From assembly GCF_044647545.1 (NCBI RefSeq), contig NZ_CP172818.1: 64,000 nucleotides of DNA; one strand, given 5' to 3'. Shown here one piece after another: positions 50,401-53,400 of the stretch. Within the stretch, counting starts at the first letter, position 1. Every line of letters begins with the position of its first letter. The DNA comes from Escherichia coli (GTDB taxonomy: Bacteria > Pseudomonadota > Gammaproteobacteria > Enterobacterales > Enterobacteriaceae). The position numbers are program-made.

Positions 50401-53400
50401 AATTCGCGATGTATTTGATTTCCAGTCACATACTCATTTTTTGCATCGGATAGATGGTTATCGGCGGCCTATATTGCTGAGCCGTAGTGAGCACAATATT
50501 CTGTTTGATTTTGCACGTTCACGCCGCGCTCTGGCGCAATTTAATCCACATGTTTTGTATCTTTCTTATCCATTTGGCGGATTTAATGACAAAGCCGTGA
50601 AGGCAGCAAAAGAAGCCGGATTTCACCTGGCGGTGACGACCATGAAAGGCAAAGTAAAACCGGGGGATAATCCGTTGTTACTAAAACGACTTTATATCTT
50701 AAGAACGGATTCGCTGGAGACGATGTCGCGGCTGGTGAGTAACCAGCCGCAGGGATAACAATCAGGCAACCTGTACCGGAATCGCTTTCGCGGTACGTTT
50801 CATTTCGTTGTCGCCTTCAAAATAGGCGACGTTGGGTCGCCAGGTGCGAGCTTCTTCATCTGGCATGGTAACGAAGCTGGCGATGATGACAATATCGCCG
50901 ACGCTGGCGCAGTGGGCCGCCGCACCGTTAACGGAAATAATTCTCGAACCGCGTTCTGCCGCGATGGCATAGGTGGAGAAACGCTTGCCGTTGGTCACAT
51001 TCCAGATATCAATGGCTTCGTTTTCGAGAATACCAGCTGCGTCAAGAAAATCCTGGTCAATGGCGCAAGAACCTTCATAGTGCAGGTCCGCATGAGTCAC
51101 TTTCACGCGGTGGAGTTTGCCCTGCAGCATCGTGCGAATCATAACTTCTACCTTTCTACCCTGTCGTTAACGAAGCAGGCGATGCCTGCTTTGAGGAAAT
51201 TCTCACGCAGTATTGCCCGATTTTTGTTTAGTGTCTACTCATCTGACGGCATTTGCATCAGCAGTTTGCGTACCGTGCCGAAGCGTGCCATGTAACGCCT
51301 GTAACCAATTGAAATTTCTCTGAACGCTGCTCGGTAAACACTAAAGAGGCGGCTGACGACGGCGCGCCTTGACTGGATACTGCCTTCACGCAAGACAGCA
51401 CGGAAGGCAGGGAAGATGGATGCACCGAGTACCACACCGCATGATGCGGTGTTTAAACAATTTTTAATGCACGCGGAAACGGCTCGCGACTTTCTGGATA
51501 TCCATTTGCCAGCGGAGCTACGCGAACTGTGTGACCTCGACACGCTGCATCTTGAGTCGGGGAGTTTTATTGAAGAAAGCCTGAAAGGGCACAGCACTGA
51601 CGTGCTCTATTCCGTGCAAATGCAGGGTAATACGGGCTATCTACATGTTGTAATTGAACACCAAAGCAAGCCGGACAAAAAAATGGCCTTTCGCATGATG
51701 CGTTATTCTATTGCTGCCATGCACCGGCATCTGGAGGCAGATCACGATAAGCTGCCGCTGGTGGTGCCGATTTTGTTTTATCAGGGCGAGGCCACGCCTT
51801 ATCCACTCTCAATGTGCTGGTTTGATATGTTTTACTCGCCGGAGCTGGCGCGACGCGTCTATAACAGTCCTTTCCCGCTGGTGGATATCACTATCACACC
51901 GGATGACGAAATCATGCAACATCGGCGGATTGCGATTCTCGAACTGCTGCAAAAACATATTCGCCAGCGCGACTTAATGTTATTGCTGGAGCAACTGGTC
52001 ACGCTGATTGACGAAGGGTACACTAGCGGAAGTCAGTTAGTTGCCATGCAAAACTATATGCTGCAACGCGGTCATACTGAACAAGCGGATTTGTTTTATG
52101 GTGTGCTGAGAGACAGGGAAACGGGAGGGGAGTCTATGATGACGCTGGCGCAGTGGTTTGAAGAGAGGGAAAAAGAAAAAGAAGACAGGAGGTAAGACAG
52201 GAGGTAATACAAGAGGTAAGACAGGAAGTAAGACAGGAATTCGCCCTGCGTTTTCTGAGTAAAGGGATGTCTCGGGAAGACGTTGCAGAGATGGCAAATT
52301 TATCTCTTGCTGAGATTGATAAGCTAATTAACTCTAACTAAGTTGTCTACGATATGAATAATTGCTTACAGATGACGTGGCAATGAATAACTGGCGCCAT
52401 CAGCCGTAGCGCCAGTTAAATATTACGCCAGTTCGACGATTTTGTTGTCGATCAGGCGAGCATCGCCAAGCCAGGCGGCTACCAGAATCACCGCTCGTTT
52501 GCTGTTTTCAGAGATTTCCAGCAAGGTGTCGGCATCGCGAATCTGAATATCATCGGCGCGGAAGCCTTTTTCATTCAGTTCTTGCCCGGCAATAGTAATA
52601 ATTTCATCGAGATCCCGTTCGCCAGCCTGCAATTTGTCGGCAATCGAACTTAAAACCTTGTACAGGCCGGGCGCAATTTTGCGTTGTTCCGCCGTCAGAT
52701 AACCGTTACGGGAACTCAGCGCCAGACCGTCTTTGGCGCGCATAATCGGTACGCCGATAATCTCAATATCAAAGCCCATATCGGCAACCATTTTGCGGAT
52801 CAGCGCCAGTTGCTGAAAATCTTTTTCACCGAAGCAGGCGATGTCCGGCTGGACCAGGTTGAACAGCTTGCTGACAATCGTCGAAACGCCGCGAAAATGT
52901 CCCGGACGGCTGGCACCTTCCAGCATGGTGGAAAGACCGGGAACATCAACATAGGTGTGGGTTTCTGTACCGTTCGGGTAGATCTCTTTTACCGAAGGCG
53001 CAAAAACTAAATCCACTTTACGTTTGTTCAGCTTTTCGCAGTCCTCTTGCAAGGTCCGTGGATAACGTGCCAGATCTTCCGGGCGGTCAAACTGCATTGG
53101 GTTAACGAAAATACTGACGACGACCACATCGGCGCGGGCTTTGGCTTCGTCGACCAGCTTCATATGGCCATCGTGCAGGTTACCCATGGTGGGCACCAGC
53201 GCCACGCGCTTACCTTCCATACGCAGGCGGCGAATTTGCTGACGCAGCAGCGGCAGGGTTTCGATAATTAACACAACGTCACTCCTTAATGGAAACTGTG
53301 TTCTTCGCCCGGATAAACGCCGGACTCCACTTCAGCCATATACTGCCGCACAGCCGCGCGGATGTCGCCCGTTTCGGCGAGGAAATTTTTGGCGAATTTA

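What the first reader, a model, noticed from the sequence alone, without database searches (positions are those of the whole stretch)
52162..52341. rpnC reading frame broken inside a 12-bp tandem repeat (copy-number-variable tract, possible slippage site)
The nuclease-like N-terminal 259 codons end at a TAA inside a run of about 4.6 copies of GACAGGAGGTAA, every unit of which carries a stop in that frame. The conserved C-terminal tail (ALRFLSKGMSREDVAEMANLSLAEIDKLINSN) is intact but in another frame, in which the same repeats read as a (V/I)RQE tract. The two frames overlap in an A-rich stretch (GGGAAAAAGAAAAAGAAG, 52168-52183) just upstream of the repeats. A single-base length change there, or a change in repeat phase, would restore one long ORF of about 308 codons. 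This is either a genuine pseudogene, a slippage-prone tract, or a homopolymer sequencing error.
Basis: partly seen in the sequence, partly recalled or inferred. Interest (0 to 1): 0.5.

Follow-up and report, generated by a model that had tools for sequence, protein, structure and literature searches.

The report
Broken rpnC toxin-antitoxin repeat tract
The reading frame of the E. coli rpnC nuclease gene really is broken inside its 12-bp repeat tract, but that tract is an already described hypervariable feature of the Rpn toxin-antitoxin genes, and the break is a one-off lesion (a private pseudogene or an assembly error) seen in no other genome.

Summary
rpnC (51416-52195) stops at a TAA after 259 codons inside a 12-bp repeat array, and the conserved tail (52162-52341) is intact in the -1 frame.

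The tract is not new. It is the dodecamer, four-amino-acid repeat region of the Rpn gene-within-gene toxin-antitoxin system (Zhong et al. 2023, PMC10400941). Repeat number there varies in frame between strains. 46 of 53 distinct natural linkers collected here differ in steps of four residues.

This window comes from an ST648-like E. coli, 99.9% identical to relatives that all carry an intact rpnC plus a small downstream copy, rpnC_Ss. The window differs from them in two ways:
- A 266-bp collapse fuses rpnC to the rpnC_Ss tail. This kind of variant is already known.
- A private 13-nt segment, GAAAAAGAAAAAG (52169-52181), replaces 26 nt (or 14 nt in another allele). This is what breaks the frame.

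The segment was found in no other public rpnC sequence searched. As written, it truncates both the nuclease (RpnC_L) and the internal antitoxin (RpnC_S, 19 aa).

I lean towards a genuine recent loss-of-function lesion (about 0.55) over a local assembly artefact (about 0.40). Programmed frameshifting and phase variation are not supported. Interest is low.

The parts
51416..52195 (+). Truncated rpnC (RpnC_L) reading frame, 259 codons plus TAA
   Evidence: ORF list. TIGR01784 Rpn family, 240 bits against a cut-off of 52. The first 251 residues are identical to ST648 RpnC. 97% identical to K-12 RpnC.
51434..52036 (+). Transposase_31 / PD-(D/E)XK nuclease domain (residues 7-207), apparently intact
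   Evidence: Pfam PF04754 matches residues 7-207 of the identical ST648 protein, E = 2.9e-87. D62, E81, Q83 and PDDEI 162-166 are present in the translation. They correspond to RpnA D63/E82/Q84/D165 (PMC5350276), using the +1 offset of the RpnA model alignment.
52123..52141 (+). Inferred internal translation start of the antitoxin RpnC_S: Shine-Dalgarno-like GGGAGGGGAG, then ATG ATG in the rpnC frame
   Evidence: Read directly from the sequence. Internal starts are shown for all five E. coli rpn genes, and RpnC_S was detected by tagging (PMC10400941). Gene callers elsewhere call proteins that begin MMTLAQWFEE. In this window the product would be only 19 aa.
52169..52181 (+). Private aberrant 13-nt segment GAAAAAGAAAAAG at the head of the repeat array; this is the frame-breaking lesion
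   Evidence: It replaces 26 nt in ST648-type genomes and 14 nt in MSB1_4I. The 27-mer around it is absent from metagenome and species-representative collections. The 20-mer occurs only in unrelated organisms. No RefSeq complete E. coli genome has it.
52182..52238 (+). Dodecamer repeat array (AAGACAGGAGGT and variants); encodes (R/I)QEV units in the tail frame
   Evidence: Tandem Repeats Finder: period 12, 4.8 copies. Repeat families. In-frame copy-number variation among strains. Described in PMC10400941.
52193..52195 (+). Premature TAA that ends the 5' frame
52162..52341 (+). Open -1 frame carrying the repeat-encoded helix and the conserved C-terminal tail, with stop at 52339-52341. There is no start codon before the ATG at 52267.
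   Evidence: Translation. Weak TIGR01784 C-terminal match, E = 4.7e-07. Homologous small proteins carry PF27070 HTH_Rpn_C.
52299..52303 (+). Junction of the 266-bp collapse. Upstream the sequence matches the rpnC tail; downstream it matches the tail of the rpnC_Ss gene present in the closest relatives.
   Evidence: Three-way comparison with ST648 copy 1 and copy 2. Only one tail copy remains in the window. In-frame fusions occur elsewhere: strain 47538 and P0020.

Best explanation
The tract is the known hypervariable dodecamer repeat of rpnC. rpnC is a gene-within-gene toxin-antitoxin and candidate antiphage module. The full-length PD-(D/E)XK nuclease is RpnC_L. The small protein RpnC_S is made from an internal start and shares the repeat-encoded helix and the helix-turn-helix-like tail.

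In this ST648-like strain the 3' end of the locus has been rearranged. A 266-bp recombination fused rpnC to the tail of the downstream rpnC_Ss copy. The first repeat units were replaced by a 13-nt A-rich patch that shifts the tail into the -1 frame.

I take this as a genuine, recent, strain-private loss-of-function lesion. RpnC_L loses its C-terminal roughly 49 residues, RpnC_S shrinks to 19 aa, and rpnC_Ss is gone. Toxin and antitoxin are therefore disabled together.

Shown: the anatomy, the privacy of the lesion, and the in-frame state of all other alleles examined.
Inferred: that the lesion is real rather than an assembly error, that both changes stem from one repair or recombination episode, and that the truncated nuclease is attenuated.
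For: - Identity of the locus: panD-rpnC-panC synteny, the TIGR01784 and PF04754 matches, and the published description of RpnS, the dodecamer repeats, rpnC_Ss and fusions (PMC10400941).
- Neighbourhood: the window is 99.9% identical to ST648-type genomes over 64 kb. Those genomes carry a 310-aa RpnC plus a 67-aa RpnC_Ss.
- Recency: the N-terminal 251 residues are unchanged.
- Assembly quality: there are no homopolymer-type indels and no frameshift in the other roughly 55 genes. A relative's error-laden assembly, L018, shows three homopolymer deletions in 16 kb.
- Placement of private indels: 3 of the 5 private indel events lie in the 7.6% of the window that is intergenic (P = 0.004 if placement were random). 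The other two hit dispensable genes. Selection-filtered real mutations would look like this.
- Junction: it is mosaic, copy 1, then a copy-2 base, then a copy-1 base, then copy 2. This fits real recombination. In-frame fusions exist in other strains.
- Tolerance: an RpnD lacking its last 45 residues is much less active, and RpnC is the weakest toxin among the active paralogues (PMC5350276). An unopposed truncated RpnC_L is therefore plausibly tolerated.
Against: - The 13-nt patch cannot be derived from any known allele by a simple mutation. It needs 8 substitutions plus 1 deletion against the 14-nt version, or 13 scattered deletions against the 26-nt version.
- No donor sequence was found.
- The patch sits at the 5' edge of a tandem array, which is where consensus and polishing errors tend to collect.
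- The window holds two more private clustered changes (56048/56052 and 57140-57148). One of them removes the T of a CCTGG Dcm site. That many clustered changes is unusual for natural mutation.
- The exact 259-aa product is recorded on a single 4.5-Mb contig only.
- No reads were available to check.
Confidence: 0.55

Rival explanations
1. Assembly or consensus artefact. The strain carries an in-frame fusion-type rpnC with a 30- or 34-residue linker. The 13-nt A-rich segment is then a garbled consensus at the left edge of the tandem array, for example from a long-read draft that short reads could not polish, or from mixed copy number in the culture. On this reading the gene and its internal antitoxin are intact.
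For: - The lesion is private to one contig.
- It is not derivable by simple mutation, and no donor was found.
- Adding one base gives a linker of exactly 30 residues, which is the canonical register. But its KRKR unit lacks the hydrophobic position and is seen in none of 53 natural linkers.
- There are other dense private clusters in the window, and changes at two CCTGG Dcm sites, 40971 and 57148.
- The source is a 4.5-Mb contig, whereas relatives' chromosomes are 5.0-5.2 Mb. That suggests an unfinished long-read-type assembly.
- Short-read assemblies often break in this tract, leaving partial proteins that end in the repeats.
Against: - There is no homopolymer error anywhere in 64 kb, and no frameshift in about 55 other genes.
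- Private indels are concentrated in intergenic DNA (P = 0.004).
- Two identical canonical units immediately downstream are read correctly.
- The neighbouring 266-bp collapse has natural precedents and a mosaic junction, so the locus probably did rearrange in this lineage.
Confidence: 0.4
2. Recoding. A low level of -1 ribosomal slippage of tRNA-Lys on A_AAA_G (AAA codons at 52172 and 52178, each preceded by A) restores the tail frame. Some full-length RpnC_L and RpnC_S would then be made, at a tuned ratio.
For: In both places the -1 codon is again AAA, so re-pairing is perfect. The tail frame is open from 52162 to 52341.
Against: - There is no X_XXY_YYZ heptamer in the zero frame.
- The only Shine-Dalgarno-like element upstream (GAGG, 52165-52168) is 3 nt away, which is the spacing that favours +1 rather than -1. 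The strong AGGAGG motifs lie downstream.
- No stable downstream structure: -12.3 kcal/mol, z = -0.57.
- No other allele examined that spans the tract needs recoding: about 120 protein tails and 10 genomic loci.
- The product would carry an unnatural KRKR unit.
Confidence: 0.03
3. Phase-variable contingency locus. Gain and loss of repeat units would switch rpnC on and off.
For: Repeat number varies widely between strains (PMC10400941).
Against: The unit is 12 nt, so copy-number change never alters the frame. 46 of 53 distinct linkers have lengths of 2 mod 4 residues. Apart from two short, unverified fragments (P0002, 'EKELRRELRRD', and possibly P0081), the window is the only out-of-frame allele seen, and its frame break lies outside the canonical units.
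Confidence: 0.02

Closest known systems
rpnC (yadD) of E. coli K-12: the RpnC_L nuclease toxin with the intragenic antitoxin RpnC_S (Zhong et al. 2023, PNAS, PMC10400941; Kingston et al. 2017, PMC5350276)
   Same: Same locus between panD and panC. 97% identical over the N-terminal 255 residues. Same internal Shine-Dalgarno plus ATG. Same type of repeat region and the same conserved tail motif (LSKGMSREDVAEMANL...).
   Different: K-12 has an in-frame 300-aa gene with KGIE/KGIQ-type units and the tail ...KVINLI. The window has RQEV-type units and a ...KLINSN tail taken from rpnC_Ss, and its frame is broken, so neither the full RpnC_L nor RpnC_S is encoded.
[quoted passage not shown]
   Same: The window derives from the ST648-type tandem arrangement. 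It shows the fusion type of rpnSs loss that the paper mentions, with a junction inside the homologous tails.
   Different: The known fusions are in frame: 296 aa in strain 47538. The window's fusion additionally carries the private 13-nt patch at the head of the array.
EcoR124I / EcoR124II HsdS TAEL repeats (four-residue repeat number sets specificity; cited as the analogy in PMC10400941)
   Same: A 12-nt coding repeat whose copy number changes the length of a helix and thereby the specificity of an interaction.
   Different: A different protein family and function. No homology was tested here. The analogy concerns in-frame variation only, not the frame break.
dnaX-type programmed -1 ribosomal frameshift (A_AAA_AAG, upstream Shine-Dalgarno-like element, downstream hairpin); from general knowledge
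   Same: An A-rich lysine-codon stretch on which tRNA-Lys could re-pair in the -1 frame.
   Different: No tandem slippery heptamer in frame, no correctly spaced upstream stimulator, no downstream hairpin, and no conservation of the arrangement.

Membership tests
Rpn (YhgA-like, Transposase_31) recombination-promoting nucleases | Match to the family profiles (Pfam PF04754; NCBIfam TIGR01784) | tested here: met
   TIGR01784: 240 bits against a cut-off of 52 for the 259-aa ORF. PF04754: residues 7-207, E = 2.9e-87, on the ST648 protein, which is identical over the first 251 residues.
Rpn (YhgA-like, Transposase_31) recombination-promoting nucleases | PD-(D/E)XK-type catalytic residues and the conserved PDDEI motif (RpnA D63, E82, Q84, D165) | tested here: met
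   D62, E81, Q83 and P162-D-D-E-I166 are present in the translation. The +1 offset to RpnA follows from the RpnA model alignment, residues 5-249 to model positions 6-251. The residue list comes from PMC5350276.
Rpn (YhgA-like, Transposase_31) recombination-promoting nucleases | rpnC orthologue position between panD and panC | tested here: met
   Window ORFs and the annotated neighbours in K-12, ST648, MSB1_4I and S3.
Rpn (YhgA-like, Transposase_31) recombination-promoting nucleases | Uninterrupted full-length reading frame including the variable C-terminal domain | tested here: not met
   Stop at 52193-52195; the tail is in the -1 frame.
RpnL/RpnS gene-within-gene toxin-antitoxin | Internal ribosome-binding site and start codon in the RpnL frame, upstream of the repeats | tested here: met
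   GGGAGGGGAG at 52123-52132, then ATG at 52136 in frame. This was judged from the sequence alone; use of this start in this strain was not tested. The precedent is in PMC10400941.
RpnL/RpnS gene-within-gene toxin-antitoxin | Four-amino-acid (dodecamer) repeats starting 8-20 residues after the RpnS start, with number varying between strains | tested here: met
   The array begins 10 residues after M241. 53 distinct linkers were found, 46 of them in steps of four residues.
RpnL/RpnS gene-within-gene toxin-antitoxin | An intact RpnS product (three-helix, HTH-like domain) able to pair with RpnL | tested here: not met
   From the internal ATG the frame ends after 19 codons. The HTH-like tail is out of frame, and no rpnC_Ss copy remains.
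RpnL/RpnS gene-within-gene toxin-antitoxin | Toxicity of RpnL, neutralisation by RpnS, protection against phage | not testable with these tools
   Needs expression, SOS-reporter and plaque assays. PADLOC v2.0.0 has no model that matches.
Programmed -1 ribosomal frameshift site | Slippery heptamer X_XXY_YYZ in the zero frame | tested here: not met
   The zero-frame codons are AGG GAA AAA GAA AAA GAA. Only single-tRNA A_AAA re-pairing is possible.
Programmed -1 ribosomal frameshift site | Stimulatory element: downstream structure, or a Shine-Dalgarno-like element about 10-14 nt upstream | tested here: not met
   Fold of 52166-52265: -12.3 kcal/mol, z = -0.57. Nothing Shine-Dalgarno-like lies at -10 to -14; GAGG lies at -3.
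Programmed -1 ribosomal frameshift site | Conservation of the two-frame arrangement among homologues | tested here: not met
   All other alleles examined that span the tract are single-frame.
Simple-sequence-repeat contingency (phase-variable) locus | Repeat unit length not a multiple of three, so that copy-number change switches the frame | tested here: not met
   Period 12. Natural variants stay in frame.

The most novel reading that the evidence does not exclude
The frame break is real and is not fully inactivating. Occasional -1 slippage of tRNA-Lys on the two A_AAA_G motifs would restore the tail frame. The strain would then make trace amounts of full-length RpnC_L and RpnC_S from a gene that looks dead. 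That would be a frameshift-throttled toxin-antitoxin/defence module, created by an imprecise event in the hypervariable dodecamer array.
Probability: 0.03. Interest if true: 0.5.

Novelty: already known. Interest (0 to 1): 0.15.

Why it matters
It matters little beyond annotation. The repeat tract, its copy-number variation, the internal antitoxin, the downstream rpnC_Ss copy and its loss by fusion were all published in 2023.

If the lesion is real, it is one natural example of a point that follows from the shared-frame architecture. A single frame-breaking event in the dodecamer array removes the toxin's C-terminal domain and the antitoxin together, so the module can be lost in one safe step. 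It would also show that events in this array are not always clean 12-nt steps, which bears on the open question of how the repeats expand and contract.

If it is an artefact, the tract is a useful warning. It is a place where assemblies fail, and rpnC 'pseudogenes' there should be checked against reads.

Tried and rejected
1. Same allele elsewhere.
- Megablast and blastn against 5,426 complete RefSeq E. coli genomes gave at best 97.9% (two pieces) over the gene and 95.4% over the 181-bp core.
- Exact 27-mer scans of metagenome and species-representative contigs found nothing.

2. Donor for the odd segment (gene conversion).
- The 20-mer GGGAAAAAGAAAAAGAAGAC gave 85 hits. All were in unrelated organisms and none was in an rpn context.
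- Protein search with the 'restored' RpnC_S found 184 relatives. None of those read had KRKR or EKEKE units.

3. Source genome or sister isolates, to see their rpnC.
- The exact 259-aa product and the private YadK-like variant are each recorded on one 4,499,902-bp NCBI contig only. Neither is in the gene-position index.
- The Hpt variant turned out to be widespread. It did lead to a closer relative, CP104843.1, which still has the intact tandem locus.

4. K-12 as an outgroup for the private intergenic indels: too divergent at those sites to be informative.

5. 'The window segment is a pure-deletion derivative of the ST648 segment.' It is a perfect subsequence, but about 25% of shuffles are too, so this is not evidence by itself.

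6. Programmed frameshift: rejected (and inspection of the sequence).

7. +1 shifting at the tandem rare AGG AGG codons: this leads into the third frame, which ends at 52262 and does not reach the tail.

8. Promoter scan for the internal rpnC_S transcript: no consensus match inside the gene, which is uninformative.

9. PADLOC: no model matched.
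Full report
**What is in the sequence**

The window carries the E. coli yadE-panD-rpnC-panC-panB region. The rpnC frame starts at 51416 and stops at a TAA at 52193-52195 after 259 codons. Tandem Repeats Finder reports a 12-nt repeat at 52182-52238 (4.8 copies, 88% matches). Just upstream it reports a 6-nt GAAAAA repeat at 52169-52183. In the rpnC frame each unit ends in TAA. 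In the -1 frame, 52162-52341 reads REGKRKRRQEVRQEVIQEVRQEVRQEFALRFLSKGMSREDVAEMANLSLAEIDKLINSN*. One coordinate is off by one.

**What the gene is**

The 259-aa product matches the Rpn family model TIGR01784 (240 bits, cut-off 52). The identical N-terminal part of the ST648 orthologue matches Pfam Transposase_31 over residues 7-207. The product is 97% identical to K-12 RpnC, and its first 251 residues are identical to ST648 RpnC. The catalytic-type residues D62, E81 and Q83 and the PDDEI motif are present. The residue list comes from Kingston et al. 2017 (PMC5350276).

**What the tract is**

Zhong et al. 2023 (PMC10400941) showed the following:
- The rpn genes are genes-within-genes. The full-length nuclease RpnL is toxic.
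- A small protein, RpnS, is translated from an internal start and blocks RpnL.
- RpnC has the most repeats in E. coli, and RpnC_S only neutralises an RpnC_L with the same repeat number.
- Some strains carry a second small copy, rpnC_Ss, downstream of rpnC. It can be lost by deletion or by fusion with the rpn body.

In the window, the internal start is recognisable as GGGAGGGGAG (52123-52132) followed by ATG ATG at 52136, in the rpnC frame.

My own sampling agrees with the paper. Ten genomic loci show in-frame arrays of different length in both rpnC and rpnC_Ss. Among about 120 protein tails retrieved with a search, 53 distinct linkers were found, and 46 of them have lengths of 14, 18, 22 ... 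46 residues. The 'copy-number-variable tract' is therefore real and already described. Because the unit is 12 nt, this variation does not switch the frame.

**What is peculiar to this window**

Over 64 kb the window is 99.9% identical to ST648-type genomes, and closer still to CP104843.1. All of these carry a 310-aa RpnC followed by a 67-aa RpnC_Ss. The window differs from them at the 3' end of rpnC in two ways.

1. *A 266-bp collapse.* The 266 bp between the homologous tails of rpnC and rpnC_Ss are missing. The junction is at about 52299-52303. Upstream the sequence is copy 1, downstream it is copy 2, and two positions are mosaic. Only one tail copy remains. In-frame fusions of the same kind exist in strain 47538 and in a metagenomic protein.

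2. *A replaced array head.* The head of the repeat array is replaced. Relatives have GGAAGACAGGAGGAAAGGCAGGAGGT (26 nt) and MSB1_4I has GGAAGACAGGAGGT (14 nt). The window has GAAAAAGAAAAAG (13 nt, 52169-52181). This alone breaks the frame.
 - It is not a homopolymer slip. Against the 14-nt form it needs 8 substitutions and 1 deletion. Against the 26-nt form it needs 13 scattered deletions.
 - Adding one base gives a linker of exactly 30 residues, which is the canonical register. But its first unit would be KRKR, which lacks the hydrophobic position and appears in none of the natural linkers.

**Is the lesion seen anywhere else?**

No.
- No complete RefSeq E. coli genome has it.
- The 27-mer spanning it is absent from the metagenome and species-representative collections.
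- The 20-mer occurs only in unrelated organisms.
- The exact 259-aa product is recorded on one 4,499,902-bp NCBI contig.

**Consequences as written**

RpnC_L keeps its nuclease domain but loses about 49 C-terminal residues. RpnC_S becomes a 19-residue peptide, and rpnC_Ss is gone. Kingston et al. found that RpnD without its last 45 residues is much less active, and that RpnC is the weakest of the active paralogues. A truncated, unopposed RpnC_L is therefore plausibly tolerated. This last step is an inference.

**Real or artefact?**

I listed every difference between the window and two near-identical genomes. Besides about eight substitutions there are five private small-indel events:
- +CC at 16330, in a REP-like hairpin;
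- -T at 32462;
- -TG at 43281;
- the rpnC patch;
- a complex change at 57140-57148 that frameshifts a yadM-like fimbrial gene.

None of the three that I searched is present in any complete RefSeq genome.

In favour of real mutations:
- There is no homopolymer error and no frameshift in the other roughly 55 genes. By contrast, the relative L018 shows three homopolymer deletions in 16 kb.
- Three of the five events fall in the 7.6% of the window that is intergenic (P = 0.004 if random), and the other two hit dispensable genes.
- The neighbouring collapse has natural precedents and a mosaic junction.

In favour of artefact:
- The patch cannot be explained by a simple mutation and has no donor.
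- It sits at the edge of a tandem array.
- There are three private clustered changes in 64 kb, which is unusual for natural mutation.
- Two private changes touch CCTGG Dcm sites.
- The source contig is shorter than relatives' chromosomes, which suggests an unfinished long-read-type assembly.

I put a genuine lesion at about 0.55 and an artefact at about 0.40. Only reads or an amplicon can settle this.

**Recoding and phase variation**

Restoring the tail needs a -1 shift. The zero frame (AGG GAA AAA GAA AAA GAA) has no X_XXY_YYZ heptamer, although tRNA-Lys could re-pair on A_AAA. There is no correctly spaced upstream stimulator. The purine-rich downstream sequence does not fold better than shuffles (z = -0.57). 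No other allele examined that spans the tract uses two frames. A +1 shift at the tandem AGG AGG codons leads into the third frame, which ends at 52262. Phase variation is excluded by the 12-nt unit.

**Verdict**

The tract is a known hypervariable feature of a known toxin-antitoxin/defence gene. The frame break is a private lesion, either an ordinary pseudogene or an assembly error. Novelty: already known. Interest: low.

Noticed in passing
window 56760-57372 (- strand), lesion at 57140-57148: A yadM-like fimbrial subunit gene of the yad operon is split into 85-aa and 64-aa ORFs. The cause is a private complex change (+AT, C/G substitution, -T inside a CCTGG Dcm site). ST648 and FDAARGOS_497 have an intact 203-aa ORF there. 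None of the 163 genomes with this allele shares the change.
   Followed up: partly
window 16330-16331, 32462, 43281: Three private small indels in intergenic DNA: +CC in a REP-like hairpin between mutT and yacG, -T between aceF and lpdA, and -TG just past the gcd stop. None is at a homopolymer. The two that were searched (16330 and 43281) are absent from all 5,426 complete RefSeq genomes.
   Followed up: partly
window 56048 and 56052 (yadK-like gene, 55517-56113, - strand): Two substitutions 4 nt apart give a private protein variant (LFATSS to LFGTSS in the signal-peptide region). It is recorded as WP_400165110.1 on a single 4,499,902-bp contig, which identifies the source as a RefSeq-annotated assembly.
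   Followed up: partly
window 40971 (speE, - strand): A private C-to-T change at the inner C of a CCTGG Dcm site (GATCCTGG to GATCTTGG). This is the classic 5-methylcytosine deamination hotspot, and also a known type of nanopore miscall at methylated sites.
   Followed up: no
L005 33740 (NZ_CP008697.1 lpdA) against window 33522: The ST648 reference has an extra A that makes lpdA 'frameshifted' in its annotation. The window and FDAARGOS_497 are intact there, so the defect is in that reference and not in the window.
   Followed up: yes
L018 (GCA_029964605.1) against window 41055, 47257, 48024: This close relative's assembly has three single-base deletions in T8, A7 and G4 runs, which shorten the speE and yadG calls. 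This is a typical long-read homopolymer error pattern, and a useful contrast with the window, which shows none.
   Followed up: yes
window 52187-52205; relatives L004 about 1890-1960: Each RQEV-coding unit contains a perfect Shine-Dalgarno-like AGGAGGT. Intact alleles therefore carry three to five such motifs at 12-nt spacing inside the coding sequence. They might pause ribosomes on the rpnC_L and rpnC_S messages.
   Followed up: no
window 30433-31298 and 34122-34498: Internal direct repeats at about 77-80% identity showed up as off-diagonal BLAST hits. One set lies within the annotated aceF coding region (presumably its lipoyl-domain repeats), and the other lies at the 5' end of the yacH region.
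   Followed up: no
L001 2490-2705, L003 2490-2687, L004 2137-2340: The free-standing rpnC_Ss gene in relatives has its own variable 12-nt repeat (GFQK units; one more copy in MSB1_4I and Ch1). Its annotation varies between 'hypothetical protein', 'transposase' and 'RpnC/YadD family protein'.
   Followed up: partly
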